Below are positions 5,324-22,588 of a DNA stretch of 64,000 bases, one piece after another; positions within the stretch are counted from its first letter, which is position 1; each line of letters opens with the position of its first letter. The translations under genes were made by a program, and so were the position numbers. The notes under the pieces were generated by a model. It ran no database searches. It was not told where the DNA came from and saw only the letters and a list, made by a program, of their open reading frames with translations. The DNA comes from Candidatus Uhrbacteria bacterium. Its GTDB lineage: Bacteria > Patescibacteriota > Patescibacteriia > JACQRZ01. Location of the stretch: NCBI GenBank assembly GCA_016206155.1, contig JACQSC010000002.1, positions 143,473 through 207,472 on the forward strand, read 5' to 3'.

Positions 5324-5343
5324 TGAGTATATGAATTTGGCGT

Positions 5344-7362: not shown

Positions 7363-7392
7363 TAGTACAATAATATATTTATTTATTCATGT

Positions 7393-7890
7393 ATGATTCT
7401 ATCAGCTAGCGGTTTTATAAAAAAATTATTTAGAATACTCGTTTTACTTGGAATTTTTTGTATCGGATTTATTGGCGGGTATTATTATAATGCTAATGAT
7501 ACGAAGCGGATCGTTTCGGATATGCAAGAAAGAATTATAGACGGATCAGAGATCGCGAAAGTTCAAGGATATCAAGTGGAAGATTTTTATGGAAAAATAA
7601 AAGAATTAAATGGCAGTATTTTATGGGTAAGAAAGATCGTTGGACCAGACGCAGAAACGCAAGATATTATTGAAGTTGGCATTTCCCCTCGCACAGAGCT
7701 TATTGCAATGAAGTATCAAAATGTAAAAGATATTTCTAAACAATTCCTCAAAAGCGATGGGAACATTGGTGAACTAAAAGAGAACATATACGTACGGGTT
7801 TATTACCGCGTAACGGATGCGAATAGTACTGAAAAAGTCGAAGCCCAAACGATATATTATTCAGATAAAAATCCCTTTCTTTTCCAGTAA
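7393..7890 (+). CDS. small membrane-anchored protein (165 aa)
   Basis: N-terminal TM helix (ILVLLGIFCIGFIGGYYY). Tightly packed between neighbouring genes. Confidence 0.55.
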   Translation: MILSASGFIKKLFRILVLLGIFCIGFIGGYYYNANDTKRIVSDMQERIIDGSEIAKVQGYQVEDFYGKIKELNGSILWVRKIVGPDAETQDIIEVGISPRTELIAMKYQNVKDISKQFLKSDGNIGELKENIYVRVYYRVTDANSTEKVEAQTIYYSDKNPFLFQ

Positions 7891-7910
7891 AGCATTGTTT
7901 GCCGTTGTAT

Positions 7911-9683
7911 ATGACACGAGAACAAGAGGACGCGCGTGAAAAATATGCAAATCGTGGAGAATATAATACAGGGTATGTGCGTCAGAGACTGCGCGCGTAC
8001 ATAGCCTCACTTATTGTTTTTTTTTCTCAAGCGCAAGAAGTATCAGCTAAAATAGAATATCAGTTTGATAAACAACAAGGTTCATACGAACTTATTTATC
8101 AAGAAAATGAATCTGAGCGGCCTGTTCATTTTTTGCCAGTTCCAATTGCAGCGATCGGCGAACATGAAAACGGAGAGCGCATACGCCTTCCGTTTTTTGA
8201 TCGATTAAGAAAAATAGACATTACAGAAGGAGGGGTAAATTACTCAATAAAAGATCCGATTGCATTTCGTAATTTTATTGAAAATGAGCTTGACCGCTAT
8301 GTGCGAGCGCTTAACATACATGGAGATATTAAGCCGCAAGATCTTATACAGATAACGGCATTGATAACTAAAAATAATATGCTTCCAACGTCTGATGAGC
8401 GTCTTTTAGATAGCATTAATCATACTCCGTTGGATGAATTACTGATGGGCGTAAAACGCGGTGTTTGCCGTCATTACGCCGCCGCTTTTGAAACGGTGGC
8501 AGAAACTATCATTGAAATCACTCAATCAAAATATCTGCAGAACATTATTGTTGATGAAGTAGGTATGGCCGATGTAAATCATGCATGGAACGTTGTTTAC
8601 CATTTGACTCAAAATAACGGGGCGCATTTTATCAATATGGGATTTATTGATACGACAATCAAGCCACACGGGACATTTTCCGATCTGGGCGAAATCGAAA
8701 AAAGACAAGGCGATGTAAAAAATTTTAGAACCATCTATCTTAATCAATTATATTATGCAGTAAACCCTGAAGATAGAATTGCTGTTGTTCGAGATTCAGT
8801 GCTCTTGGCGGAAAACGAAAAAGAAAAGCTGCAGTACGTGACAGAGCTTGCCTTTACTTTTTTATCGCAAGTTAAAGAACTGTATCAACGGAAAGAAAAT
8901 GGCAAAGCGAGACAAGTATTTGAGGAGGCGGATAAGTATTTTAACAAATGGTACGAACAGTATTCAAAAGACGACACAGCGCTTCAGCATGTGCAGTTTA
9001 TTCGGACAATAATGATATCCATCTATTCTGTTGTGGCAGATAATACGCCTGATGCAGAAGGCAAGGTATCTGTTTACAAACGCGCATTGTTATGGAGCGA
9101 TATATTTAATTATGCTTTGGCGGATGCATATCTAAAAAGCGGCAATCAAGATGAGGCGCGGGCTATTTACGTTGGGATGCTTGAAAACATAAACGACAGC
9201 AGAGTGTTTGAAAAGGTATTTGGATTTTTCAATAAACTCAATGAAAGTGAAAATGTTGAAAAAACATTGAGCGCATACAAAAAATATCTTGAAAAAAGAC
9301 CAGTATCAGAGCAAGCATTCGGTTTTACTATACTTGCCGACGCATATGAGGTATTGGGAAATATTGAACAAAAACTATTATATTTAAAAAAAGCATTTTT
9401 CTGCGACGATGAACGAGCCGAAAGGAGGATGGAGAGAGGGGAACGATACGCTGATTCTGTTCTCGCGCAGGGAGATGCGATAACTGCCAGGAAAATATAT
9501 GATGAAATGTTTAAAATCTATAAAAAAGCAAAAAAGGACGGAAAGATAACCATTCCTTTCAAGCGTCAGATGCCCGGTAAAGGTTTTGTGGAAGTTTTTG
9601 CCGAGGAAGATGTATATAAAGAATATCTAAAGGAGAAACTGGGACAGCCACCGTTTTTACACATTAACGAAGCGGAGAACTAA
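7911..9683 (+). CDS. transglutaminase-like cysteine peptidase superfamily protein with alpha-helical (TPR-like) C-terminal region (paralog A)
   Basis: The track ORF starts at TTG 7899, and the first ATG is at 7911. The motif G-V-C-R-H-Y-A-A-A-F...H-A-W-N-V-V fits the transglutaminase-like core Cys...His arrangement. A signal-like segment (LRAYIASLIVFFSQAQEVSA) follows the start. The last 11 codons lie inside the 190-bp direct repeat described below. Confidence 0.65.
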   Translation: MTREQEDAREKYANRGEYNTGYVRQRLRAYIASLIVFFSQAQEVSAKIEYQFDKQQGSYELIYQENESERPVHFLPVPIAAIGEHENGERIRLPFFDRLRKIDITEGGVNYSIKDPIAFRNFIENELDRYVRALNIHGDIKPQDLIQITALITKNNMLPTSDERLLDSINHTPLDELLMGVKRGVCRHYAAAFETVAETIIEITQSKYLQNIIVDEVGMADVNHAWNVVYHLTQNNGAHFINMGFIDTTIKPHGTFSDLGEIEKRQGDVKNFRTIYLNQLYYAVNPEDRIAVVRDSVLLAENEKEKLQYVTELAFTFLSQVKELYQRKENGKARQVFEEADKYFNKWYEQYSKDDTALQHVQFIRTIMISIYSVVADNTPDAEGKVSVYKRALLWSDIFNYALADAYLKSGNQDEARAIYVGMLENINDSRVFEKVFGFFNKLNESENVEKTLSAYKKYLEKRPVSEQAFGFTILADAYEVLGNIEQKLLYLKKAFFCDDERAERRMERGERYADSVLAQGDAITARKIYDEMFKIYKKAKKDGKITIPFKRQMPGKGFVEVFAEEDVYKEYLKEKLGQPPFLHINEAEN

Positions 9684-9838
9684 TTCATATTATACACAGA
9701 GTTTTTGGGACATAACCGCATATTTTATTTTATCGCGCAAGAGATCTTATGAAGATCCGTATTTATATTTTCATTCCCATTTTTTTCCTGATTATAGTAA
9801 ATAGTGTAGAGGCAACAATCTGTATTAACGGTGATTGT
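9649..9838 (+). repeat. 190-bp direct repeat, copy 1 (about 99% identical to 17797..17986)
   Basis: Compared directly: caccgtttttacacattaacgaagcggagaactaattcat...atctgtattaacggtgattgt. Only 2 mismatches. Confidence 0.9.
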
Positions 9839-9868
9839 ATTAACGGTGTCAGGAATAGTTTTTATTGA
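9749..9868 (+). pseudogene. truncated 5' fragment (39 codons) of the PA14 secreted-protein gene
   Basis: MKIRIYIFIPIFFLIIVNSVEATICINGDC is identical to the N-terminus of the gene at 17897. It is then broken at an attaacggtg microhomology and stops at 9868. Confidence 0.75.
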
Positions 9869-9891
9869 ACGCAGATTGAGGTGGTAATTTT

Positions 9892-12800
9892 ATGTCATTC
9901 CGCTCAAAGCGAGGAATCCCTCGTTTCACCATATTACGAATAACGCCAAAGACCACGTTTGGTTTCCTGGCGTTGTTTTTTATTGGTATTGTCATCCTAT
10001 CTTTTTTTGTTATCGGCACGGCTGCGTCCGCGGCATCGTTTTGTTTTAATAGCAAAACTCCACAAGAGCAATGTTACCCCAACCTTAAATTCATTGGTAC
10101 GGTCGGGACACGACCGGTAAAGAACACGTATCTCAAAAAGCTAGAGCCGCCAAAAAGTGATTATTGGGGGGACACACAAAGGCATTGGCCAACCTCAAAC
10201 CTTGGGGACGCAACTAAAGATCGTTACTGCAATAACAGTAAATGGGGCGGGGGAACTACAAATCAAACGTGCATTTCCCGCGCCGGCTTGGAAACTGCAA
10301 TGCCGCGACTCGAGATTGTCAATCGTGGGGCAGATAGCTCCTTGGAAAATTTTCCGATGACCCTGCGCGTCCGAGGCCAGACGAAGAAGTACTGGTATTT
10401 TCCCGCCTATTACAGTATTCTTCCTTTTAAAAACCCATATACAGGTGAAGATAAGATATACCAGTATGATGTTCGCCCCGATCTCAGCTATAATTTTAAA
10501 GACCTGAAAGGACGCAAATGTCCCTGCGCTCCAGCGACACCACCAATACTTGATGATCAATGGGGACAAGGAGATGGTTATTATACTTACCACGGCGCTC
10601 CCTTTTTTAAAGAGGAAAAAAACGGTTTCCGGAAGTGCAATTTTTTGTCAGACAAACGCGACTACTATCCTGTAGATGTGTCCGGATGGAGTCACCGCAC
10701 ATGGGAGGAGACAGAAGATCCAAACGATTGTTATTTTGAAATTGCGAGTTCATCAAACGTACCCGGTGCAAATAAAAAATTTTATTATCGTGTCAAAAAA
10801 ATTCCCGTTATTCATCTTGAAGAAATTTTCCATAATGATACGAACGCTTTTCGTAATTATGAATATTCGGTAAAACAAGAGTCAGTGGCACGAAACGAGT
10901 ATGAAAGAGTAAAGACCGAAGAAATTGAAACGCCAAAACTGATAAACAAATGGCGTATTTATTATCGATATGACTATGGAAAGGAACGGATAGATTTAGA
11001 AACAGATAATTTTGGGAAGATCGTCGCGGCACGTTATGGCAATCAAACACCTGCTGAATGCCCTTGTTCTAAAAACGGAAAAATATGTATTGTTGGAGAT
11101 GTAGTTCCATGGGATGTCTATTCTTGTTATGAAAAATATAAAGATTGGAATAAACCATGGTCACAGTTAGCGGAAGAAGATAAAAGAAAAGATCGTAGAG
11201 TGCAATCAGCAAGGAAGAGCTACTTTAAAGCCTTCGGAGAATTGCAGAAAGATTCTGGAGAATTGTTAGAACAAAATAGAGTCGCAAATATCGCGAGAGA
11301 GAAGGGGGAATACTATCCATACAAAGTATATGAACCAGGGGTCGATCCGCCAGTAAATTCCTTTGATTTTATATCCACGTATGATGGTCAATTGCTACCA
11401 ACGGCAAAACAAGCATATAAGGTAAAAAATGAACAGGAGATCTGGAATAGAAATGCGTTGAACTTTGGCTACGGTGCCATAGTAGACTTAAGGTATACGC
11501 CTACGAATTGCAATATTAACGGCCATTTCGATAACATCGAAATTGGTTGGGACAATAAAGGCAGATATACGGATTATACGCTCACGATGCACGGAAATCC
11601 CAGAAATAAGATTAGTGATATAAAGAAGAGTGCAGAAGCTAGACGTATTCAGGCAGTCGCGGTCCCGACGCAGTTAAGTCTTAGTGGCGCAGAATGTAGA
11701 CTGCAAATGACCCCTCATCTTTTTGACTTTCCTGTGACATACTATTTTTCAACAGGGGACGTGGACATGCCACCGATAAGGATTCAATCATTTAAGGTTT
11801 CCGTCGAAGGAAAAACATCCAATCCGTTAGGGGAATGCAGCGCAGACAATTACACAAAATGTCTCCCGAAAGAAAAACTGCCAAGCGGCATGGAAAGTAG
11901 TGAGGCGTTTTTTACCGATGGTCGTACTCCTTTACGTTCGAAAAGAAGCGCACCAGCCAATACAACACTTGAGATTGAAACAAAAGAGAAAGAAACATTT
12001 GCCAATGTAAACTGGAATGTCACCGGAATGGATGATGTAAATGGAATTGTGGTTACGGTGGTGAAACATACACAAGACATAAATCATAGAGTTTACGATA
12101 TCGCCAACGTTGTTCAGGGGGGGACAGGAAGTTATACATCTCAACTTAAACCTGGAGACTGTAAAACAGAAAATAATAAACAAACATGTTCATGGAATAC
12201 CTATTCATTTTTTCTTACTGCGGTCAACGACCGCGCAGTAACAGATTCCGATAGATTAAAATATAATGAAGATAACATACAATACGTTTGGGCCGCTTCG
12301 CAAAAGATTGATGTAAAAGTAAAAAAAGAGGAATTGGCTATTCCTAAGTTTAGCGTTAAGAAATCCACTGGGAAGAAAGATTCCGCGGACTTAGAATGGA
12401 AAACAACAGGCGCGGAATTTATTAGGATAGAGATGCAGTATTCGTGGGGCAGGAAGAAGTCATATCCTCAGGGTGATAAGTGGGAAGACGGAACATGGAG
12501 CAAAGATACGAACGGCTCTGTGACGATTAATGGCATCGATACAAGAGATACGGTGTTTACCCTGTTCGCCCAAGACAACGAGGGCAATACCATCACATCA
12601 AACACAGAAAAGCTTGGTGATCCAAAGGAAGTGAACATCATCGATGTTGTTATTAATGGTCTGGGACTTCGAAATAGGCTTCTGAATAGATCACTCTATG
12701 AAATTATTACTGATTCTGATTGTCCCGACATTCCCATTGTCGGAGATATTTGTAGAGCGTTATCATTCAACAATATTTGGAGAACAGTTGGAGGTCTTGT

Positions 12801-14223
12801 AACAAAGGTTATCCCAGGTCTTGGTGATTTAGTGGGAATGTTCCTTAATTTCTTGAAGGAACCGGTGGTCGCAATTTTTGGGGTTATTATGGAGATTGTT
12901 GACAATTTTGTGATTCAAAAGAATACCGTGAAGGGTGCGGCAGAAAGCATCAATGAATTCATTGGCGGCTTCTTGAGAGAGTTTATTCCAAATTTTATCG
13001 CTGGCGCCGCCGAAGGGGTATTTAATAAGTTGATGGGTGATTGTGTTGGTTCAAAAATGGGTGGATGGATCAACATTGGAGTGCAAGCGCTGTATTCAGG
13101 AGTTGGGGGATTATTGCAGTTGATTGGAAAAATTCCGCTTCTTGGTGGTGTGGGTAAGATTGGTGAAAGTATGACGTCAGCATGTCCTGTCGAAAACTCC
13201 GGATGTACGATTGGGATTTGCGCGGGACAAGACACAGGTAAAGAAATAGGAAAAACCGTGCTTGAGGATGTTATCTCCGGGCTCCTTCCGTTTGTGCCTG
13301 TTACAGGAGCGCTTGATAGCGCCAAGAAGTTTATCGAACCTATGGCGACAACAATTTTCCCTGAGTGTAAAAATACCGTTCCCAAAGAACGTCAAGATAC
13401 AGATGCGTACGCCTGTATAAGTGGTTCTTGTCAGAAAGCTGAGAGAAAAGTTGAAATTTGCGGACTTGAAGGTGGAGGTGGTGGAGCGTATCCAAACAAG
13501 GCAGCCTGTCTAGCGTCGTGTGGCATACCACCGGTTACGACAGAAGTGAAGTATTATTATAAATGCAACGATCCAAGCACGCTTACATGTGATAAACAGG
13601 AAGAGAAAACAGAGTATGAGGGAGACGCTGGACTGTATGCATGTAATTTGACATGTAAGGAAAAGAAATTTGATGAGCCGACTAAAGACTATTTTAAATG
13701 CATAAATAAGAACGAAGGTCAATGTAGAAAAGTGGAAGAAAGTACCACTTATGTGGGTCTTATAGGAAAAGCAGCGTGTGACATTACGTGTAAGAAAACA
13801 GGAGTTGGTTGTGGATGTCCTAAACATCCCGAGTATCTTACCACATCTGAAATTGGCAAGAATCCTTTAAATAGAAAGAGAGCGATTGCAAATGTTTTGA
13901 TGACAACCGTCTACGTTTCGACCGGTGGTGTATTTTGTGTACGACGGGATGCCGCATATAATTGCGCGGAAATACTAGATAAGGCAGGCAAAGCTGACGA
14001 CCTTATAAAACTGGGGCGAGACAATAATTGGGATGTGTCCCAGAAGAAAGAAAGCATTGATCGTAGTGTATTTACCGGACTGTACGAAAAAGCAAAGCTA
14101 GTTCCTGGATGCGCTGCCTTTATAGCTATTGATAGCATTAAAAATTTTAAATTGCCTCTTTGCGAACAGGAAATAACTAATGCACGGTGCGAGGCAATTA
14201 CCTCTGAAGATGACTGCAGATAG
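9892..14223 (+). CDS. giant secreted or membrane-anchored cysteine-rich protein (1443 aa) with a glycine-zipper hydrophobic segment and three tandem about 40-aa Cys-rich repeats
   Basis: N-terminal TM/signal segment (FGFLALFFIGIVILSFFVIGTAASAASF). About 70 Cys in total. Residues around 930-1110 are Gly/Ala/Ile-rich with GxxxG runs (GVGGLLQLIGKIPLLGGVGKIG). Three 'K-Y-[YF]-K-C...C...E-x-T-x-Y-x-G...A-C...C' repeats sit near the C-terminus. Confidence 0.8.
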   Translation: MSFRSKRGIPRFTILRITPKTTFGFLALFFIGIVILSFFVIGTAASAASFCFNSKTPQEQCYPNLKFIGTVGTRPVKNTYLKKLEPPKSDYWGDTQRHWPTSNLGDATKDRYCNNSKWGGGTTNQTCISRAGLETAMPRLEIVNRGADSSLENFPMTLRVRGQTKKYWYFPAYYSILPFKNPYTGEDKIYQYDVRPDLSYNFKDLKGRKCPCAPATPPILDDQWGQGDGYYTYHGAPFFKEEKNGFRKCNFLSDKRDYYPVDVSGWSHRTWEETEDPNDCYFEIASSSNVPGANKKFYYRVKKIPVIHLEEIFHNDTNAFRNYEYSVKQESVARNEYERVKTEEIETPKLINKWRIYYRYDYGKERIDLETDNFGKIVAARYGNQTPAECPCSKNGKICIVGDVVPWDVYSCYEKYKDWNKPWSQLAEEDKRKDRRVQSARKSYFKAFGELQKDSGELLEQNRVANIAREKGEYYPYKVYEPGVDPPVNSFDFISTYDGQLLPTAKQAYKVKNEQEIWNRNALNFGYGAIVDLRYTPTNCNINGHFDNIEIGWDNKGRYTDYTLTMHGNPRNKISDIKKSAEARRIQAVAVPTQLSLSGAECRLQMTPHLFDFPVTYYFSTGDVDMPPIRIQSFKVSVEGKTSNPLGECSADNYTKCLPKEKLPSGMESSEAFFTDGRTPLRSKRSAPANTTLEIETKEKETFANVNWNVTGMDDVNGIVVTVVKHTQDINHRVYDIANVVQGGTGSYTSQLKPGDCKTENNKQTCSWNTYSFFLTAVNDRAVTDSDRLKYNEDNIQYVWAASQKIDVKVKKEELAIPKFSVKKSTGKKDSADLEWKTTGAEFIRIEMQYSWGRKKSYPQGDKWEDGTWSKDTNGSVTINGIDTRDTVFTLFAQDNEGNTITSNTEKLGDPKEVNIIDVVINGLGLRNRLLNRSLYEIITDSDCPDIPIVGDICRALSFNNIWRTVGGLVTKVIPGLGDLVGMFLNFLKEPVVAIFGVIMEIVDNFVIQKNTVKGAAESINEFIGGFLREFIPNFIAGAAEGVFNKLMGDCVGSKMGGWINIGVQALYSGVGGLLQLIGKIPLLGGVGKIGESMTSACPVENSGCTIGICAGQDTGKEIGKTVLEDVISGLLPFVPVTGALDSAKKFIEPMATTIFPECKNTVPKERQDTDAYACISGSCQKAERKVEICGLEGGGGGAYPNKAACLASCGIPPVTTEVKYYYKCNDPSTLTCDKQEEKTEYEGDAGLYACNLTCKEKKFDEPTKDYFKCINKNEGQCRKVEESTTYVGLIGKAACDITCKKTGVGCGCPKHPEYLTTSEIGKNPLNRKRAIANVLMTTVYVSTGGVFCVRRDAAYNCAEILDKAGKADDLIKLGRDNNWDVSQKKESIDRSVFTGLYEKAKLVPGCAAFIAIDSIKNFKLPLCEQEITNARCEAITSEDDCR

Positions 14224-14240
14224 ACAGAAAGGTTTTTATT

Positions 14241-15392
14241 ATGTTAAACGAACGCGCACATAAAGAGTTGCTACCGGCAGAGCGGTATGAAAAATTTATC
14301 CTCCCCCTTGCGTTTGTATGCGGTATGTCTCTGCCTCCTGAAGCTCGCGCTGCAGAGCCGCACGCACGCGAATCGTTGCAGCCGCTTACCGCAGAACAGC
14401 TTAAAGAAGTCCGTGAATTAGAAAAAACATCTCCGCTTGCAAAAGCAATTGATGCTGTGCCCGATTCCTTAATGAGAGAAGAAGGATATGATGGGGATAT
14501 TTTGTCACGCAAAGAGCGGGCGAAGTCCCAAATCCCGATCTTGTACGATGTAAGATGGAAGGTTGGTCCGGGTGAAAAGCCGTTGTCACAACGATATCCG
14601 CTTATTAATGTAGAGATATTTACTAACGGCGCTTTTATCTATTTCAATATTCCTGATGATGCGCGATTGCACAAGTTGGGCATCACGCGAGAGGAGATGG
14701 AAGTTGTTGCATCAGAAATTAAAGAGTCAACAACGATCCTGACCGATATGCCCGCGCACCGAGTTAGTCAGCCGAAAGATTCTAACCTTATTGTTTTTTT
14801 TAGTGACAATCCTCAAGAATCCTCAAGCATTAGAGACGGAAGGGCTGTTGGTCATACTCTGTATACAGTAGGTGTGCCAATCTCGTTTTTTCCATTGGGA
14901 ACTGTATACCCAATAGAATTTATTGAGCCTGGCAGTAATGGAGGTGTTTATATTCCACTGGAATCTTATAATGATAAAATTGAAAAAATGTTATCAGGTA
15001 AGAATCTTCATGAAAAAACTCGTGAATTAATATATGATATTACGCGGCACGCATACTTCAAGGAGTTGATTTATACAGCAGAGCATGAAATATGCCATTT
15101 TCTCGGTTACGGTCATAGCAACAATAAGAAGCATATTACTTATGGCGGGCCGGGCGTGGTGAGCTCGGGTACCGTCGTATCTCTCGGAAAAAGATCTGGA
15201 AAAAAACCAGTAATTCCCGAAGGCGCTTCTCTATATACTGATAAAATGGGAAATGATTATTATTTTTTATCTGCATGGGGTGACATTCGAAAATCTCCAG
15301 TCGTTGATCTGAATTTTTTTCTACGGATATTTGCGAAACAGAATAAGGAGCGAAAACTTATGGAAGAGCGCAATCAGCAGCATATGGAGTAA
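14241..15392 (+). CDS. putative zinc metallopeptidase with metzincin-type HEICHFLGYGH motif (383 aa)
   Basis: Matches the HExxHxxGxxH consensus exactly. RBS gaaagg lies 8 nt upstream. The gene starts 18 nt after the giant gene. The N-terminal region is hydrophobic. Confidence 0.6.
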   Translation: MLNERAHKELLPAERYEKFILPLAFVCGMSLPPEARAAEPHARESLQPLTAEQLKEVRELEKTSPLAKAIDAVPDSLMREEGYDGDILSRKERAKSQIPILYDVRWKVGPGEKPLSQRYPLINVEIFTNGAFIYFNIPDDARLHKLGITREEMEVVASEIKESTTILTDMPAHRVSQPKDSNLIVFFSDNPQESSSIRDGRAVGHTLYTVGVPISFFPLGTVYPIEFIEPGSNGGVYIPLESYNDKIEKMLSGKNLHEKTRELIYDITRHAYFKELIYTAEHEICHFLGYGHSNNKKHITYGGPGVVSSGTVVSLGKRSGKKPVIPEGASLYTDKMGNDYYFLSAWGDIRKSPVVDLNFFLRIFAKQNKERKLMEERNQQHME

Positions 15393-15697
15393 TAACGCAC
15401 GAGAAAAAGGATGCGGGAAAGCTGTGCAAAAAACGGTGTCAGGAATGGTTTATTGCAAAAACTCCTACTTATAGGCATAGATAGGAGCATGGGTAGGGGG
15501 ATAGGAATCATTTTATGTGTGGTATGATTTTCGTATGCTTCGACCACACAGAACAGATGTCGGAGATGTCGTGTATCACTTATCAATCTTGCGAACGCTC
15601 GATTGGGCAAAAACGTGACCATGGGCCGTTTTTGAAATCAAATGTCTTGACAACGATACCGTATACCTGTATTGTATAGTTACATACAATTATCACT

Positions 15698-16021
15698 ATG
15701 AAGCTTGGATTTAGCGCTATATCAATTGAGGGGTTTGATTGGGATACGGGGAACAGTGAAAAGAATTGGATAAAGCATCACGTCAGAAAGAATGAATGCG
15801 AGGAGGTTTTTTTCAATAAGCCGTTAAGAATTTTTGATGATCAGGTATATTCCAAGACTGAGAAACGTTTTGGGGCCCTCGGAAGAACGGATAGAGGAAG
15901 ACGGCTCACTATTATATTCACTATACGAAAAAAAATGATTCGGGTCATTTCTGCACGAGAACAAGGTCGGCACGATCGAAAAATTTATGAAGCAGTCGAG
16001 CAAAACTATTACCAATCATAA
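15698..16021 (+). CDS. brnT: BrnT-family (DUF497) toxin
   Basis: FDWDTGNSEKNWIKHHV...EVFF...RTDRGRRLTIIFTIRKKMIRVISAREQGRHDRKIY matches the BrnT pattern (FEWD..K...N..KHGV, R.ISAR). It lies immediately upstream of a small RHH gene. Confidence 0.7.
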   Translation: MKLGFSAISIEGFDWDTGNSEKNWIKHHVRKNECEEVFFNKPLRIFDDQVYSKTEKRFGALGRTDRGRRLTIIFTIRKKMIRVISAREQGRHDRKIYEAVEQNYYQS

Positions 16022-16036
16022 TCAGGACGCACCTTT

Positions 16037-16327
16037 ATGAAAGAAGGGACAAGGAGAAAAATCAAAATGCTTCCATCGTTCCGCAGTGAGGATGAGGAGC
16101 GGGAGTATTGGGATAGCCATGAATTGAGCGATGTGTTCGACGTAACACATGGCACTGATATGACATTTCCCAACCTCAGGCCATCAACGAAAAACATTAC
16201 GATCCGCGTGCCCGAATCCATGCTTTTTGCCCTGAAGGGTATTGCACGAAAAAAAGATGTGCCATATCAGTCACTTGCAAAAGTGTATCTTGACGAAAAA
16301 ATTCATGAGGAGTATTTCGTGAAATGA
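16037..16327 (+). CDS. brnA: BrnA-family antitoxin (ribbon-helix-helix)
   Basis: PNLRPSTKNITIRVPESMLFALKGIARKKDVPYQSLAKVYLDEKI matches the BrnA consensus (FPNLKPSTK.ISIRLP...DVPYQSLIK). Alternative start at M11 (16067). Confidence 0.65.
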   Translation: MKEGTRRKIKMLPSFRSEDEEREYWDSHELSDVFDVTHGTDMTFPNLRPSTKNITIRVPESMLFALKGIARKKDVPYQSLAKVYLDEKIHEEYFVK

Positions 16328-16513
16328 AATAACTTCGCTTAGTGTCACGGAAAATTGGGGAAAATTGGTGTCAGAAAATTGGTGTCAAGTCCGCATTTTC
16401 GCATTTGGAAAATGGATTCACTACGACAAGTTAAACCATATACTTTCCAGCCGCTTTTTACCGCGTCGAAGTAACGTTTTCTGCCCGCCACTTTTATCAT
16501 GAGGCAAAAAAGG

Positions 16514-16541
16514 TTGACACAATTTTTAACCATGGTAGAAT
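16514..16541 (+). promoter_or_regulatory. sigma70-like promoter (TTGACA-16 nt-TAGAAT) for the ATPase gene
   Basis: Sequence ttgacacaatttttaaccatggtagaat. The same element is present in the decayed copy at about 22266. Confidence 0.5.
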
Positions 16542-16569
16542 ATTGTAGTAATACATTTTTTGTCAACTT

Positions 16570-17751
16570 ATGCGTATTGACCGCTATATTCATGACGTCA
16601 TCCTTGCGGATCTTCATGAGCCAACCATGGTGTTTCTTGCAGGTCCCCGACAAGTCGGCAAGACGACACTCGCGCACATTCTCGGAGAGAAAGACTTCAC
16701 TGCTTATCAGTATTTGAACTGGGATGACAGCGACGACCAGAAGCGTATTCTCGCCCGTGATTTTGAAGCTGATGCGCGCTTACTTGTCTTTGATGAACTG
16801 CATAAATACCGCAACTGGAAAAATTATCTTAAGGGACTATACGATAAACAAAAAACTCGATTCGCCATCATCGCAACAGGCAGTGCGCGTCTTGATATGT
16901 ATCGTCGCGGCGGCGATTCGTTGATGGGGCGTTATCATCATCTTCGGCTTCATCCGTTTTCACTTGCGGAACTTGTTGGGCAGAGGTTTTCCAGCAGTCC
17001 ATTTTCAGAGCTGATGTTTCCCGTTGAAACGAGTACCATTGCCCAAGCGGCGCGCGACCTGCTCCGCTTTGGAGGTTTCCCAAAGCCATTTTTGCAAAAG
17101 AGCGATACTGCGTTGAGACGTTTTCACAACGAGCGCTTTGATCGCTTAATCAAAGAAGATATTCGTGATACCGAACGGGTGCACGACCTTTCGTTACTCC
17201 AAGAGCTCGCTGCGCTTCTTCCGGAACGGGCAAGCTGCCGCCTCTCATTAAACAATCTGCGAGAGGATCTTGGAGTTGCGCATAAGACCGTGAGCCATTG
17301 GATGGATGTGTTTGAGAGATTTTACTATCATTTTCGTATTACGCCATTCGCGATCAAAACAGCCGCCTCGCTTCGCAAGGAACCAAAACTCTATTTATGG
17401 GACTGGTCGGTGGTGGAGGATGCTGGAAATCGTTTTGAGAATATGATCGCGTCACATCTTCTTAAGTTTGTTCATTTTTTATGCGACACGCAAGGATACA
17501 AAGCGATGGTGCACTATATGCGGGATCGTGATGGACGCGAAGTTGATTTTTTGATAACGATTAATCAGAAGCCATGGTTTGCTGTTGAGGTAAAATATTC
17601 AGACACCACTATCTCGCCACATCTTTCCTATTATATGCAACGCGCTCGGATTCCATTCGGATATCAGGTTGTCGCAACGCCAGGGATTCATCGAATAAGA
17701 GATTCAATTCATGTGATAAGCGCCAGTCGTTTTCTTGCGGGGCTTGTGTAA
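16570..17751 (+). CDS. COG1373-type ATPase (AAA domain plus DUF4143-like C-terminal domain)
   Basis: Walker A GPRQVGKTT and Walker B LLVFDELH. Overall architecture of the widespread 'ATPase, AAA_14/DUF4143' family. Has its own promoter and terminator. Confidence 0.8.
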   Translation: MRIDRYIHDVILADLHEPTMVFLAGPRQVGKTTLAHILGEKDFTAYQYLNWDDSDDQKRILARDFEADARLLVFDELHKYRNWKNYLKGLYDKQKTRFAIIATGSARLDMYRRGGDSLMGRYHHLRLHPFSLAELVGQRFSSSPFSELMFPVETSTIAQAARDLLRFGGFPKPFLQKSDTALRRFHNERFDRLIKEDIRDTERVHDLSLLQELAALLPERASCRLSLNNLREDLGVAHKTVSHWMDVFERFYYHFRITPFAIKTAASLRKEPKLYLWDWSVVEDAGNRFENMIASHLLKFVHFLCDTQGYKAMVHYMRDRDGREVDFLITINQKPWFAVEVKYSDTTISPHLSYYMQRARIPFGYQVVATPGIHRIRDSIHVISASRFLAGLV

Positions 17752-17772
17752 GGAGGGAAAACGGTGAAGGAG

Positions 17773-17796
17773 AAACGGTGACTGTCACCGTTTTTA
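17773..17796 (+). terminator. rho-independent terminator (aaacggtgactgtcaccgttttt)
   Basis: Perfect 8-bp stem with loop ctgt followed by a T-run. Lies 22 nt after the ATPase stop. Confidence 0.65.
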
Positions 17797-17986
17797 CACC
17801 GTTTTTACACATTAACGAAGCGGAGAACTAATTCATATCATACACAGAGTTTCTGGGACATAACCGCATATTTTATTTTATCGCGCAAGAGATCTTATGA
17901 AGATCCGTATTTATATTTTCATTCCCATTTTTTTCCTGATTATAGTAAATAGTGTAGAGGCAACAATCTGTATTAACGGTGATTGT
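17797..17986 (+). repeat. 190-bp direct repeat, copy 2
   Basis: See 9649..9838. Here it spans the terminator-proximal spacer, the RBS and the first 30 codons of the PA14 gene. Confidence 0.9.
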
Positions 17987-20599
17987 CTTGATCAGCAACA
18001 ACTTCATGAGTTTGACAAGATTCAGAATTATTTAGATTCTTCCGCTATCAATCGTTATAGCCAAAATGGAGAACGATTTATAAGGTGGCCGAAGGGAAGT
18101 TACAGAGAGACCGGAAAGAGCGCTCTTTGCATAAATGGGAATTGTATTACCGAGTGGCCACCTCGTTTGAAAAATTTCGAATTAACTCTCGAAGGCGAGG
18201 ATTCAATGCAACGATATGTGGGCAGGTATTTTGTATTCGGACGAGTAGCAGCTCAGGATTATTATCGAGCTGGAGTTGTTTTGAAATACAATAACCAGTA
18301 CAAGCGATGGCTTGATCCTTCAACCGCTTCCCCGCCAGAAATTATTTATACAACGCCAGCATTTTCAGATACGGGGTATTCATTTGAGACATATTTAGGG
18401 CAATCCGTGGTTGGAAAAAGAAACTTTAATTATTTAAAATCGTCAAGGTATACCGATTTGAGCAATTTTGCTTGTAACAAGGTATCTACAAAGACAGAAT
18501 ATATTTACAATGATAAAGCACGATATATAAAATTTGAGGGCGGCAGAGACGAAGCAAGCTATCGCGGTTCGCTCACCTGTAAAATTCGTCACAAAAGTCC
18601 TATTGGCCTAGAGGCTGTTTATCCATTTGCTGTTGGAAAATTTGAATTGCCAGCTCCGAAAATACTTCAATTCAACGGAATACAGACTTCAGATGGAAAA
18701 CTTCAATTTTTTATCTTTGGTGACGGATACCAATTGACCGCTAAATATGTTGCAGAACTTGATTCGTCGGGACAGGAAAAGAAAGTCATTTTTGATTTGT
18801 TGAATGATCCGTTTGATTTGATGCATATCATTCCTTATCCCGCCGTAGAAACATCATATCGTTTTGTTATAAAAAATTCAGCTGGTGTCGTAACAGCGGA
18901 ATTTTCAAAGAGGCCAAATTATTACGGTCCATGGAGACCGGGCCCTCGATGGGCGACCGACACGCTTGATGATGGGCTAAGGGAGTGGTATAGTTCAGTT
19001 CGCTCATATCAAAGCGTTATAGATGAATTGGCTAATCCACCAAAAGAGAGGAAAGCAAGGGAGGATTCTTCGGAGCGCAACACAAGACAAAAAACAAAAA
19101 TTCAAAGCATTATCAGCAATGTAGGCAGTGGAATCACGTATTACGGACAAAATATTCAAGACATGTCGTATATTCATGATCCAGAGGTTGCTTTCGAGGA
19201 TACGTACACAGATCACCTTGTAGACTCCCTTCCTCCTTGCAGTCCAAAACCAAACCCGCTCTTAATTCAAGAGGCCTACCCAGATCTTTCAGAATTTTAT
19301 CCGGCATATCGCTGTTTTGGTAAAGCAAAACATTGTCTTGACGTGCTGCCGGATTGTCATATATCAGCTGTTAATATAACTGATATATTTAATTTAGATC
19401 AAATACATGCGAAAGATCTTCAAAATGAAGCGTTCATAGTAGAGTCTTGTGGTTTTTGGAGCTCCAATGAAAACAAATTAAAGCATCCTGATCTTGGACG
19501 ACGATGGTTATGGGACCCGAAGCGAAAATATCTTGTAAAAGATAATCCAGTTCAGACGAAAGTACGAGAAGTGCGTTGTGAAGATGGCGTGGTAGATACA
19601 CAGTATACGTATTCAAGCGTTCGCGGACCTAAAGTTAAATACGAATGCGGCCTTATGGATTCACGGTGCAGGGAGGGCGGGGTACGATCGCGCATGGAAA
19701 TCGCGAGAGAGTTAAAATCGCGTTCCATAGAAATTCCGACAGAATCGCCGACTTCGATTAAACAACAAGGAAAGCCAATCAATGCTGAGTCAACAGGCAG
19801 TGAGTGGGTTGATTGCTCGAAAACCCCTGAAGGGTGTAATAAATTTGTTCCAGATGATATAAATGACAATGCTGGCCATCTTTATCATTCTGAAGGGCAT
19901 TCAAATGATGGCATTCGTGATTTTCAGCGTCGCCTGAATGAGGCGCGCAGGGATGGTTCTGGAACCCATCCGATTGATCTTTATAATCCCCAAACACAAA
20001 AACAATATGTTGAATCAAATACAGGAGTTGTCACAAAGGAAGAGGCGGAATCTATCTATGGTAGTACAACTTCTGAGCAGCGTGAAGAAATCATTGACAA
20101 GGCAAAAGAGAAAAGAACCGATAGCGCGTTTAGTGTTGCGTCAATTATAGGCCAGAAGAAATGCAAGACTGACTTTCCATACGGCATCTTCCATGTGTGT
20201 TATTTTTCCGGGATAAACGCACCGATGACTGACGCGTCGGTCATTTTACAACAGCCTGAATGGAACGTGCCAGGTCCCATAAAAACAGGAGTGTTGATGG
20301 ATAATAGCTGGGGGACGGGGGTTATCAGTGCGACCAAGAGAACAGATGACATATCTGGCGTCTGGCGCGGACAATTTTTGTTTGAAAAGGGAACTTATTC
20401 ATTTTTCACGGTTGCAGATGATGGTGTTGAGGTTTGGTTTGACGATACCATGATTATTCAAAATTGGGCTGATCACGGAGAGACAGAAAACCGATCATCC
20501 CCTATTTTTCTTGATGGAGGATTTCATACCATTATGGTTCGATGGTACGAAAAAAACGGAGGGACTCGCTTGTTACTGCGAACCGAATTTATTCAGTAA
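17897..20599 (+). CDS. secreted protein with C-terminal PA14-like domain (900 aa)
   Basis: Signal peptide MKIRIYIFIPIFFLIIVNSVEA followed by a CINGDC / CINGNC motif. The C-terminal segment GVWRGQFLFEKGTYSFFTVADDGVEVWFDDTMIIQNWADHGETENRSSPIFLDGGFHTIMVRWYEKNGGTRLLL matches the PA14 pattern (Y.F...DDG..L.ID......NW.DHG.......L.AG.H.I.V.Y.E.GG.A.L.L). Confidence 0.8.
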   Translation: MKIRIYIFIPIFFLIIVNSVEATICINGDCLDQQQLHEFDKIQNYLDSSAINRYSQNGERFIRWPKGSYRETGKSALCINGNCITEWPPRLKNFELTLEGEDSMQRYVGRYFVFGRVAAQDYYRAGVVLKYNNQYKRWLDPSTASPPEIIYTTPAFSDTGYSFETYLGQSVVGKRNFNYLKSSRYTDLSNFACNKVSTKTEYIYNDKARYIKFEGGRDEASYRGSLTCKIRHKSPIGLEAVYPFAVGKFELPAPKILQFNGIQTSDGKLQFFIFGDGYQLTAKYVAELDSSGQEKKVIFDLLNDPFDLMHIIPYPAVETSYRFVIKNSAGVVTAEFSKRPNYYGPWRPGPRWATDTLDDGLREWYSSVRSYQSVIDELANPPKERKAREDSSERNTRQKTKIQSIISNVGSGITYYGQNIQDMSYIHDPEVAFEDTYTDHLVDSLPPCSPKPNPLLIQEAYPDLSEFYPAYRCFGKAKHCLDVLPDCHISAVNITDIFNLDQIHAKDLQNEAFIVESCGFWSSNENKLKHPDLGRRWLWDPKRKYLVKDNPVQTKVREVRCEDGVVDTQYTYSSVRGPKVKYECGLMDSRCREGGVRSRMEIARELKSRSIEIPTESPTSIKQQGKPINAESTGSEWVDCSKTPEGCNKFVPDDINDNAGHLYHSEGHSNDGIRDFQRRLNEARRDGSGTHPIDLYNPQTQKQYVESNTGVVTKEEAESIYGSTTSEQREEIIDKAKEKRTDSAFSVASIIGQKKCKTDFPYGIFHVCYFSGINAPMTDASVILQQPEWNVPGPIKTGVLMDNSWGTGVISATKRTDDISGVWRGQFLFEKGTYSFFTVADDGVEVWFDDTMIIQNWADHGETENRSSPIFLDGGFHTIMVRWYEKNGGTRLLLRTEFIQ

Positions 20600-20606
20600 G
20601 TCGTCT

Positions 20607-22163: not shown

Positions 22164-22188
22164 TTGATTTGGAAAAAAATACGAACAA

Positions 22189-22494
22189 AACCATATACTT
22201 TCCAGCCGCTCTTGTTGCGTTGAAGTAACGTTTTCTGCCCGCCATTTTATAATGAGGCAAAAAAGGTTGACACAATTTTAAACTAAGGTCGAATATTGTA
22301 GTAATACATTCTGATCGCTTAATCAAAGAAGATATTAGTGATACCGAACGGGTGCACGACCTTTCGTTACTCCAAGAGCTCGCTGCGCTTCTTCCGGAAC
22401 GGGCAAGCTGCCGCCTCTCATTAAACAATCTGCGAGAGGATCTTGGAGTTGCGCATAAGTGTAAGGAGGGAAAACGGTGACTGTCACCGTTTTT
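22189..22494 (+). pseudogene. decayed copy of the ATPase gene: promoter/5'UTR + 137-bp internal fragment + stop/terminator
   Basis: Compared directly. 22189..22310 matches 16434..16560, 22312..22459 matches 17149..17289, and 22460..22494 matches 17747..17795 (with one internal repeat unit missing). Confidence 0.85.
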
Positions 22495-22588
22495 TTCCTG
22501 TCACCGTTTTTTTGCCGTTTTTTTGTGAACTAGCGTTGAAAATTCCGATGTGGTATAGTAATAATTGAATCAGGTTGATGCAATTATT

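What the first reader, a model, noticed from the sequence alone, without database searches (positions are those of the whole stretch)
9842..15458. Second nested repeat pair delimits a two-gene cassette (giant protein + metzincin)
aacggtgtcaggaatAgttttTattgAa at 9842..9869 and aacggtgtcaggaatGgttt-attgCa at 15432..15458 are direct repeats of about 25 bp with 3 differences. They flank exactly the 1443-aa gene and the HExxH peptidase gene. The left copy abuts an attaacggtg microhomology that also occurs at the break of the truncated gene fragment. No integrase or transposase is present, so this could be a recombination site of an unknown mobilising system, or a scar.
Basis: seen in the sequence. 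Interest (0 to 1): 0.55.

Follow-up and report, generated by a model that had tools for sequence, protein, structure and literature searches.

The report
Dispersed transposase-linked repeat, not cassette borders
The two 25-bp repeats are real, but they are two copies of a short repeat scattered through the genomes of these tiny groundwater bacteria and tied to a domesticated-type transposase (a dead copy of its gene lies beside the right repeat), so they do not mark a dedicated mobile two-gene cassette.

Summary
A 15-mer pair alone is within chance (about 3 expected per window).

The same 20-22-nt core, AACGGTGTCAGGAATAGTTTTT, recurs with unrelated flanks in three other Candidatus Uhrbacteria genomes and in metagenome contigs. 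It lies directly upstream of, and inverted downstream of, a Y1/HUH transposase. That protein is closest to REP-associated tyrosine transposases (RAYT; best solved structure E. coli TnpA-REP, 4ER8). All four intact genes with both flanks visible are bracketed by inverted copies of one element variant.

In the window, a frameshifted stub of this gene (15535-15605, E = 2.2e-10) lies 77 nt downstream of the right copy. The left copy matches foreign copies better than it matches the right copy. It sits at the join of a 209-bp duplication that placed the PA14 gene's promoter-like region and 5' end in front of the giant gene.

Homologous giant + HExxH pairs in two other organisms lack the type-A element.

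Verdict: a REP-like, RAYT-associated dispersed repeat in a rearranged accessory island. It is a new member of a known kind. The cassette interpretation is only partly supported.

The parts
9842..9863 (+). It lies in the leader of the giant gene and supplies the last codons and the stop of a 39-codon PA14 gene-fragment ORF.
   Evidence: 100% identical over 22-23 nt to copies in L009, L012 and L013, and over 24 nt to L017. It does not fold alone (0 kcal/mol).
15432..15451 (+). It differs from the consensus by A16G and a shorter T run. It is 40 nt after the HExxH stop and 77 nt upstream of the transposase stub, in the same orientation.
   Evidence: It is present with identical flanks in Logan contig L001, and L002/L003 span the same stretch. 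It forms only a weak hairpin (-5 kcal/mol, z -1.1).
15535..15605 (+). Pseudogene stub of a RAYT-like Y1/HUH transposase: MLRPHRTDVGDVVYH, then a 1-nt frameshift, then INLANAR. Homology is lost after that.
   Evidence: nhmmer with a profile of six RAYT 5' coding regions gives this as the only significant hit in the window, E = 2.2e-10. It is also the top hit of the protein profile, starting at profile position 1, and it aligns at the DNA level. tblastn first flagged it.
9630..9838 (+). Duplicated segment S': a degenerate palindrome, a promoter-like region and the first 29-30 codons of the PA14 gene. It is joined at its right end to the left element copy.
   Evidence: about 99% identical to 17797-17986 (2 substitutions in 190 nt). 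The palindrome part carries 4 changes in 14 nt.
17767..17986 (+). Source copy S: palindrome, promoter-like region and 5' end of the intact PA14-domain gene (17897-20599).
9821..9848 (+). Junction: TGTATTAACGGTG repeated 15 nt apart. The first copy is native PA14 gene sequence (it encodes CINGDC). The second bridges into the element.
   Evidence: The intact gene reads ...GATTGTCTTGAT where the fragment reads ...GATTGTATTAACGGTGTCAGG.
9892..14223 (+). Giant gene: 1443-aa predicted membrane-anchored or secreted Cys-rich protein with no Pfam family (HY623_01370; NCBI calls 1307 aa).
   Evidence: Homologues are L005 3366-6884 (34% identity) and L006 (46%).
14241..15392 (+). 383-aa protein with an invariant HExxHxxGxxH motif (HY623_01375). 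The metzincin fold is not verified.
   Evidence: The AlphaFold model has mean pLDDT 38 and is unusable.
16350..16389 (+). Tandem GAAAATTGG(TGTCAG) units, resembling the tandem half-units seen upstream of RAYT genes. They lie between BrnA and the AAA_14 promoter.
   Evidence: compare the tandem arrays in L016, L020, L021 and L022.
17757..17810 (.). Palindromic relative of the element (GAAAACGGTGA, GAAACGGTGAC-T-GTCACCGTTTTT). It is terminator-like and lies right after the AAA_14 stop.
   Evidence: -16.8 kcal/mol, z -6.3.
22466..22526 (.). Second palindromic relative plus an extra inverted half-site (the reverse strand reads AACGGTGACAGGAA). It follows the decayed AAA_14 copy.
   Evidence: -11.4 kcal/mol, z -3.2.
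15698..16327 (+). BrnT/BrnA-type toxin-antitoxin pair downstream of the transposase stub.
22188..22459 (+). Decayed second copy of the AAA_14/DUF4143 gene (intact copy 16570-17751) with its promoter and two internal deletions.

Best explanation
The two repeats are independent copies of a short dispersed element, here called type A (core AACGGTGTCAGGAATAGTTTTT). It belongs to a REP-like repeat family of Candidatus Uhrbacteria and related CPR bacteria. The family is the cognate flanking sequence of a RAYT-like Y1/HUH transposase, arranged as in a REPtron: tandem copies upstream of the gene and an inverted copy just after its stop codon.

Shown: the right copy is the gene-proximal element of such a locus, and the transposase gene there has decayed to a 71-nt frameshifted stub. 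The left copy is a consensus-type solo copy. It sits exactly at the join where a 209-bp duplicate of the PA14 gene's palindrome, promoter-like region and 5' end was placed in front of the giant gene.

Inferred: by analogy with E. coli TnpA-REP, the enzyme would bind the imperfect single-strand hairpin (AAA[A/C]GGTG / TCAGG loop / 3' arm) and nick and rejoin it, which spreads the element. The copies then act as recombination-prone punctuation between co-directional accessory genes. The left junction looks like serial template switching: the native gene sequence runs to ...GATTGT, then comes a 10-nt templated ATTAACGGTG, then entry into the element through AACGGTG microhomology. A likely consequence is that the giant-HExxH pair is now transcribed from the copied PA14 promoter.

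The two-gene 'cassette' is an old, conserved gene pair. It is not a unit defined or moved by these repeats.
For: (1) The 20-mer recurs in 3 other Uhrbacteria MAGs (L009, L012, L013 with 3 copies) with unrelated flanks. It also recurs in 8 metagenome contigs.
(2) L012 has two tandem near-copies (+), then a 225-aa ORF, then an exact copy (-). The ORF matches Pfam Y1_Tnp at 1.4e-19 and NCBIfam REP_Tyr_transpos at 72 bits against 18.6 bits for IS200.
(3) A 25-member profile of the family hits 4ER8 (E. coli TnpA-REP) best, at 4.5e-6, ahead of the IS200/IS605 TnpA structures. H60-W61-H62 and Y122 in a Y---NP motif are invariant. All 25 members best-match REP_Tyr_transpos.
(4) The element lies 18-77 nt upstream of the transposase start, in the same orientation, in L012, L015, L017, L018, L021 and the window. 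It lies about 385 nt upstream in L020, whose gene is directly flanked by type B. It lies inverted after the 3' end in L012 and L009.
(5) All four intact genes with both flanks visible are bracketed by inverted pairs of one variant: L012 A/A, L022 B/B, L020 B/B, L024 C/C.
(6) The window stub at 15535-15605 scores E = 2.2e-10.
(7) The putative hairpin pairs in 80.6% of cells (0 of 500 shuffles reach this). The given register beats all slid registers, and one pair switches A-T to C-G in 9 of 20 sequences.
(8) The left copy is identical to foreign copies over 22-24 nt but to the right copy over only 15 ungapped nt.
(9) The giant + HExxH pair sits in a conserved neighbourhood in L005, and also occurs in L006, with no type-A element within 4 mismatches.
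Against: - The single window copies do not form stable hairpins, and there is no GT[AG]G foot, so they are not canonical REPs.
- Copy number looks low. The exact 20-mer occurs on only one contig in each of the three other MAGs, and only 2 copies plus about 3 relatives occur in the 64-kb window.
- The proteins score below NCBIfam's curated cutoff (72 against 80). phmmer with one sequence found no PDB match.
- The covariation rests on a single pair that may reflect one inherited change.
- Whether the source genome encodes an intact transposase is unknown.
- The left junction rests on one MAG assembly.
- The template-switch model and the promoter-donation idea are inferences.
Confidence: 0.8

Rival explanations
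1. Cassette-specific recombination sites. The two repeats are an attL/attR pair or a target-site duplication left by one insertion of a mobile giant + HExxH cassette.
For: The copies are direct repeats that bracket exactly the two genes. The left copy sits at a break with microhomology. The region has low GC and is mosaic.
Against: The left copy matches copies in other genomes better than it matches the right copy. The element occurs at many unrelated sites. The homologous gene pair in L005 and L006 lacks it and sits in a conserved neighbourhood. The right copy is accounted for as the upstream element of a decayed transposase gene.
Confidence: 0.05
2. HUH-mediated cassette shuffling. Directly oriented element copies serve as left and right ends for the Y1 transposase, as in IS200/IS605, so genes lying between two copies can be excised as single-stranded circles and reinserted at another copy.
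For: Accessory genes are individually bracketed by co-oriented copies in several genomes. In L013 the layout is TM gene | 138 aa + HEPN/MNT | AAA_14 | NTase pair. In L005 the AAA_14 gene, 80% identical to the L013 gene, is bracketed by degenerate type-B copies at equivalent positions but has different neighbours. The transposase stub lies downstream of AAA_14 in L005 and upstream of it in L013, which is a circular-permutation-like pattern.
Against: Co-directional genes with a repeat after every stop codon give the same bracketing trivially. Tandem duplication followed by differential loss also explains the permutation. The transposase genes themselves are flanked by inverted copies, not direct ones. 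No excision junction was seen. The giant + HExxH pair is not found elsewhere with these ends.
Confidence: 0.08
3. A transcription signal only. The element is a conserved operator, promoter-upstream or terminator motif, kept because it regulates the transposase gene and neighbouring genes, with no role in mobility or recombination.
For: Its position is fixed 18-77 nt upstream of the transposase start, ahead of -10-like boxes. Copies and palindromic relatives lie just after stop codons and are followed by T runs.
Against: Exact solo copies occur far from any transposase gene and inside the 3' ends of ORFs (L013a, window left). Inverted copies follow the gene. The variant changes together with the transposase lineage. 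The single copies are poor terminator hairpins.
Confidence: 0.06
4. A chance 15-mer match between two AT-rich intergenic regions.
For: About 3 exact 15-mer direct pairs are expected per window by chance. The extension beyond the 15-mer is weak.
Against: The same 20-24-mer is conserved in other genomes and is tied to a transposase family.
Confidence: 0.01

Closest known systems
REPtron / REP-BIME with TnpA-REP (RayT) of E. coli; REPIN-RAYT systems of Pseudomonas (Nunvar 2010; Bertels & Rainey 2011, PMC3116915; Ton-Hoang 2012; Messing 2012, PMC3479197; Bertels 2017, PMC5581495; Quentin 2018, PMC6006769)
   Same: The protein is a Y1/HUH enzyme with the class-2 Y---NP signature, and its best solved-structure match is 4ER8. 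The gene is flanked by inverted copies of its own short repeat. Solo and doublet copies are dispersed in intergenic DNA. The repeat variant tracks the protein lineage. Copies sit at the 3' ends of genes and at rearrangement joins.
   Different: There is no GT[AG]G foot. The type-A unit is only an imperfect hairpin with a conserved TCAGG loop. Tandem 13-15-nt half-units lie upstream of the gene. The protein has a roughly 100-aa C-terminal extension and HWH rather than the usual HuH residues listed in PMC6006769. Copy number appears low. The hosts are CPR bacteria with small genomes. Many loci keep only a 5' gene stub. NCBIfam scores fall below the curated cutoff.
IS200/IS605 insertion sequences (IS608, ISDra2)
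   Same: They share the Y1/HUH transposase fold family (Pfam PF01797; weaker PDB matches 2XM3 and 2FYX). Subterminal hairpins are recognised on single-stranded DNA.
   Different: IS200/IS605 ends are hairpins in direct orientation on one strand, whereas here the flanking copies are inverted. No tnpB is present. The NCBIfam IS200 model scores only 18.6 bits.
Integron gene cassettes (attC / IntI)
   Same: Co-directional accessory genes are separated by a recurring short sequence with hairpin potential.
   Different: No Pfam integrase match was found among the 15 long ORFs screened within 1-27.7 kb. The element is 22 nt, not a 57-141-nt attC with R''/R' cores (attC features from my own knowledge). 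The associated enzyme is a Y1/HUH nuclease.
REP-mediated chromosomal duplications in enterobacteria (join points inside REP sequences; recalled from my own knowledge of Shyamala et al. 1990, not retrieved here)
   Same: A segmental duplication has its join point exactly at a REP-like element, with microhomology.
   Different: Here the duplicated piece is only about 209 bp (promoter-like region plus gene 5' end), and the junction carries a 10-nt templated insertion.

Membership tests
RAYT / TnpA-REP (class 2 TnpA-Y1) | Y1/HUH catalytic core: an HuH motif and a catalytic Tyr in a Y---NP motif | tested here: met
   Pfam Y1_Tnp matches at 1.4e-19. H60-W61-H62, Y122, N126 and P are invariant or nearly so in 25 homologues. 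The motifs align to PEHMH and YIYINP of 4ER8. The Y---NP signature is as defined in PMC6006769.
RAYT / TnpA-REP (class 2 TnpA-Y1) | Closer to RAYTs than to IS200 transposases by sequence | tested here: met
   NF047646 scores 72 bits against 18.6 bits for NF033573. All 25 of 25 members best-match NF047646. The PDB profile search gives 4ER8 at 4.5e-6 against ISDra2 at 6e-4.
RAYT / TnpA-REP (class 2 TnpA-Y1) | Reaches the curated NCBIfam equivalog cutoff (80 bits) | tested here: not met
   P0006 scores 72 bits. This is a divergent lineage, not the E. coli-type equivalog.
REPtron arrangement | The gene is flanked by copies of its cognate repeat in inverted orientation | tested here: met
   L012 (copies at 1385+ and 1418+, then 2162-), L022 (9928+ and 9949+, then 10697-), L020 (2070-, then 1353+) and L024 (4228+, then 4964-).
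REP / REPIN sequences | Short repeat dispersed in multiple copies in extragenic DNA away from the transposase gene | tested here: inconclusive
   Solo copies are seen: window 9842; L013 at 6871 and 3835; L022 at 8164 and the 3859/3906 doublet. Genome-wide counts were not possible, and the exact 20-mer lies on only one contig per MAG.
REP / REPIN sequences | Each unit is an imperfect palindrome forming a hairpin | tested here: inconclusive
   Types B and C and the hybrids form 6-8-bp stems. Type A pairs at 6 of 8 positions and is not stable alone (0 and -5 kcal/mol). Across the family, 80.6% of cells pair and one pair covaries.
REP / REPIN sequences | Conserved 5' GT[AG]G guide tetranucleotide at the hairpin foot (canonical REP, PMC6006769) | tested here: not met
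   The foot is A-rich (GAAAAC/GAAAAG) and no GTAG or GTGG is present. Atypical REPs without GT[AG]G are reported for subclasses 2.6 and 3.
RAYT | Typically single copy per genome and vertically inherited | not testable with these tools
   Only loci around hits could be fetched. The JACQWH MAG has one intact gene (L022) plus a stub (L013).
RAYT | The enzyme cleaves and rejoins its REP on single-stranded DNA | not testable with these tools
   This needs biochemistry.
IS200/IS605 | Left and right end hairpins in the same orientation, with the element transposing as a unit | tested here: not met
   The flanking copies are inverted in 4 of 4 intact loci.
Integron cassette array | IntI tyrosine recombinase plus attC sites at cassette 3' ends | tested here: not met
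   No Pfam integrase match among the 15 long ORFs screened within 1-27.7 kb. The element is too short and lacks attC organisation.
Metzincin peptidase (the 383-aa protein) | HExxHxxGxxH zinc-binding motif | tested here: met
   HEICHFLGYGH; H282, E283, H286, G289 and H292 are invariant in 4 homologues.
Metzincin peptidase (the 383-aa protein) | Metzincin fold with a Met-turn | tested here: inconclusive
   There is no Pfam match. The AlphaFold model has mean pLDDT 38 and is unusable. No conserved Met downstream is evident in the alignment.

The most novel reading that the evidence does not exclude
In CPR bacteria the RAYT-associated elements may work as cassette boundaries. Co-oriented copies would let the HUH enzyme, or replication slippage at the hairpins, excise and reinsert whole accessory genes (toxin-antitoxin pairs, AAA_14 ATPases, surface-protein genes). 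Truncated transposase 5' stubs with their promoters would be reused to drive the next cassette. That would amount to an integron-like shuffling system built on REP/RAYT parts.
Probability: 0.1. Interest if true: 0.75.

Novelty: new member of a known kind. Interest (0 to 1): 0.35.

Why it matters
RAYT/REP systems have mostly been studied in Proteobacteria. Two searches of the held literature found nothing on them in CPR/Patescibacteria. Here a large family (6,858 relatives at E <= 1e-10) shows the REPtron layout in these very small genomes. A 20-nt element stays 100% conserved while the proteins diverge to 60% identity.

The element marks breakpoints in an accessory island next to type IV pilus genes. 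That bears on how episymbiotic bacteria reshuffle surface-protein and defence genes.

For this scan, the practical lesson is that the repeat pair is a generic dispersed element, not evidence of a new cassette-mobilising system.

Tried and rejected
- Chance. The 15-mer pair alone is within the chance expectation. Chance was rejected only because the element recurs elsewhere.
- Hits in unrelated phyla. The 20-mer also hit Nitrospira, Myxococcota, gammaproteobacterial and other proteobacterial MAGs (L007, L008, L010, L011) and two higher-GC metagenome contigs (L014, L019). None has a Y1 transposase nearby. About 2 chance hits are expected in 596 Gb (my own calculation) and 4 were seen, so I treated these as chance and did not pursue them.
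- Known RNA families. Rfam on 9000-23000 gave nothing (one hit at E = 0.86).
- Intrinsic terminators. The consensus scan did not flag the two copies.
- Solved structures. phmmer with a single RAYT sequence gave no PDB hit. The profile search did.
- Independent assemblies of the left junction, or an empty site. Exact-protein look-ups for the 594/590-aa, 393-aa, 1443-aa and 1307-aa products were not on record. P0036 was also not on record.
- Structure of the HExxH protein. The 3-sequence run gave pLDDT 38, so no fold search was run.
- Integron, IS200/IS605 and target-site-duplication readings were considered and rejected (see the membership test).
- A literature search for REP join-point duplications returned nothing.

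Full report
**1. Observation**

AACGGTGTCAGGAAT is exact at 9842 and 15432.

An exact direct 15-mer is not unusual by itself. Markov-1 random sequences give 3.0 such pairs per window, and about five isolated pairs are seen. Position is what first set this pair apart. The left copy starts exactly where a 193-nt, about 99% identical repeat ends (9649-9841 = 17797-17989).

**2. Source and genes**

The window comes from a Candidatus Uhrbacteria (CPR) metagenome-assembled genome. The two genes are HY623_01370 and HY623_01375, on a 244,926-bp contig.

Neither cassette protein has a Pfam family, and each has only two or three relatives among 5.8 billion proteins. The HExxHxxGxxH motif is invariant in four homologues. 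The AlphaFold model was unusable (pLDDT 38), so 'metzincin' rests on the motif alone.

The surrounding genes are:
- a 1595-aa repeat protein, three proteins without strong matches, and then the cassette;
- a BrnT/BrnA toxin-antitoxin pair and an AAA_14/DUF4143 ATPase;
- a 900-aa PA14-domain protein and a 550-aa protein;
- a decayed second AAA_14 copy, followed by type IV pilus genes.

The 5-23 kb stretch has GC 0.37-0.44, against 0.49-0.54 elsewhere.

**3. The gene pair is old and conserved**

In L005 (a JGI metagenome contig) the order is: homologue of the 1595-aa protein, giant homologue, HExxH homologue, membrane protein, PA14 protein, AAA_14/DUF4143, RelB/YafQ. L006 carries the pair at 46-47% identity. 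Neither locus holds the 20-mer within 4 mismatches.

**4. The repeat is a dispersed element**

Scanning one genome per species for AACGGTGTCAGGAATRGTTT found three other Uhrbacteria MAGs: L009, L012, and L013 with three same-strand copies. It also found four hits in unrelated phyla, in line with chance (about 2 expected by my calculation) and with no transposase nearby.

The flanks differ completely between copies. The conserved core is AACGGTGTCAGGAATAGTTTTT.

In L013 the copies lie at these places:
- at the 3' end of a membrane-protein gene, where the element supplies the last five codons and the stop;
- on both sides of an AAA_14 gene;
- next to HEPN/nucleotidyltransferase pairs.

The metagenome scan added eight contigs.

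**5. Link to a transposase**

In L012, two tandem near-copies (+) precede a 225-aa ORF, and an exact copy (-) follows its stop. The evidence on what this ORF is:
- Pfam Y1_Tnp at 1.4e-19.
- NCBIfam 'REP-associated tyrosine transposase' at 72 bits (cutoff 80), against 18.6 bits for IS200.
- A profile of 25 homologues hits E. coli TnpA-REP (4ER8) best, at 4.5e-6, ahead of the IS200/IS605 transposases. The HUH motif and the catalytic Tyr align.
- All 25 homologues best-match the RAYT model.

The family is large (6,858 relatives at E <= 1e-10) and the named members are CPR lineages.

The type-A element lies 18-77 nt upstream of the gene start, in the same orientation, in L012, L015, L017, L018 and L021. 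It is often preceded by tandem GAAACGGTGTCAGG units. In L020 a type-A array lies about 385 nt upstream of a gene that is directly flanked by type B. In L009 an inverted copy follows a 3' gene remnant.

Two further variants exist: B (AAAGGTGTCAGGTACCTTTT) and C (AAAGGGGTCAGGAGCCTTTT). All four intact genes with both flanks visible are bracketed by an inverted pair of a single variant: L012 A/A, L022 B/B, L020 B/B, L024 C/C. This is the REPtron layout described for RAYTs (PMC6006769).

**6. The window holds a dead copy of this gene**

A DNA profile of six RAYT 5' coding regions hits only 15535-15605, at E = 2.2e-10. The match reads MLRPHRTDVGDVVYH, then a 1-nt frameshift, then INLANAR. It lies 77 nt downstream of the right repeat copy, in the same orientation as in the intact loci.

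So the right copy is the gene-proximal element of a decayed REPtron, and the statement that no transposase is present does not hold. No other RAYT-like sequence exists in the window. Similar 5' stubs recur in L013 and twice in L005. Each is joined to an element or hairpin variant and followed by another gene.

**7. Structure of the element**

The single window copies do not fold stably (0 and -5 kcal/mol). Variants B and C and the hybrids form 6-8-bp stems around a conserved TCAGG loop.

On 20 instances, 80.6% of cells pair (0 of 500 shuffles reach this). The given register beats all slid registers. One pair switches A-T to C-G in 9 of 20 sequences. This is modest support and could rest on a single inherited change.

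There is no GT[AG]G foot, so this is not a canonical REP. Atypical REPs lacking GT[AG]G are already reported for some RAYT subclasses.

The window's palindromes at 17757-17810 and 22466-22526 share the AAACGGTG arm and fold strongly (z -6.3 and -3.2). I read them as relatives of the element that also resemble terminators. That reading is an inference.

**8. The left copy and its junction**

The left copy equals the consensus. It is identical over 22-24 nt to copies in L009, L012, L013 and L017, but matches the right copy over only 15 ungapped nt. This argues against the two being products of one insertion event.

Homology with the intact PA14 gene runs 9630-9838 = 17767-17986, with 2 substitutions in 190 nt. 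The junction reads ...TGTATTAACGGTGATTGT | ATTAACGGTG | TCAGGAAT. In order, that is native gene sequence, a 10-nt repeat of sequence from 15 nt upstream, and then the element, which is entered through the shared AACGGTG.

I infer serial template switching at a hairpin-prone repeat. It copied the PA14 gene's promoter-like region and signal-peptide codons in front of the giant gene. The stub ORF ends inside the element, 24 nt before a strong ribosome-binding site and the giant gene's ATG.

A nick by the HUH enzyme at a pseudo-site is an alternative I cannot exclude.

This junction was not found in any independent assembly. The 13-nt shared sequence is too short to cause a de Bruijn mis-join, which is my inference.

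**9. Verdict**

The finding is a real repeat, but it is a generic one. It is REP-like, associated with a RAYT-type transposase, and lies in a rearranged accessory island.

I found no report of RAYT/REP systems in CPR bacteria in the held literature. I therefore file this as a new member of a known kind.

One more novel reading is not excluded but has only weak support. Co-oriented copies might let whole accessory genes be shuffled. The hints are that AAA_14 genes are bracketed by copies in three genomes, and that the stub/AAA_14 order is circularly permuted between L005 and L013.

Noticed in passing
window 9649-9841 and 17797-17989 (true homology 9630-9838 and 17767-17986): A segmental duplicate, about 99% identical, of a palindrome, a promoter-like region and the first 29-30 codons of the PA14-domain gene, placed in front of the giant gene. 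In the 9.6-kb copy the palindrome carries 4 changes in 14 nt. Those changes remove a TGA and let the 594-aa ORF read on to 9683.
   Followed up: partly
window 9894-9920; L005 3273; L013 3765(-); L017 5875 and 6209(-); L010 6251(-): A second recurring hairpin family, GTCATTCCCGCG(N3-5)CGCGGGAATCC. In the window a degenerate copy overlaps the giant gene's start codon (ATGTCATTCC...). In L005 it lies upstream of the giant homologue. In L017 one copy is cut by the type-A element.
   Followed up: no
window 16433-17751 and 22188-22498: The AAA_14/DUF4143 gene and its promoter have a decayed second copy. The retained parts are 92-99% identical and there are two internal deletions. The spacing of 5753-5754 bp suggests an old tandem unit of AAA_14, PA14 and the 550-aa gene.
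   Followed up: partly
window 15535; L013 ~5293(-); L005 15946 and 16026; L015 502(-); L017 5960: Truncated 5' stubs of the RAYT-like gene (8-40 codons), together with their promoter, recur in several genomes. Most are joined to an element or hairpin variant, and in the window, L005 and L013 another gene follows (a toxin-antitoxin pair or AAA_14). This may be promoter reuse.
   Followed up: partly
L013 6852-6871 (-): The element supplies the last five codons and the TAG stop of a 313-aa membrane protein whose L005 homologue ends differently. A repeat has been inserted into the 3' end of a gene without destroying it.
   Followed up: no
window 5000-23000 compared with the rest: A low-GC stretch (0.37-0.44 against 0.49-0.54) holds all the element copies and their relatives. 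It lies directly upstream of type IV pilus genes (T2SSE at 22565, T2SSF at 24340, pilins from 25433). In L022 the intact transposase gene also sits inside a pilus gene cluster, next to an IS66 transposase.
   Followed up: partly
window 9892 compared with the NCBI call: NCBI annotates the giant protein as 1307 aa. The 1443-aa ORF starting at 9892 has a strong GAGGTGG ribosome-binding site and a hydrophobic N-terminus, and the L005 homologue aligns from residue 34. The longer call is probably the right one.
   Followed up: partly
L007, L008, L010, L011, L014, L019: The exact 20-mer also occurs in Nitrospira, Myxococcota and proteobacterial MAGs and in higher-GC metagenome contigs, with no Y1 transposase nearby. 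The number is near the chance expectation, but L014 and L019 show 2-4 extra complementary bases flanking the core.
   Followed up: partly
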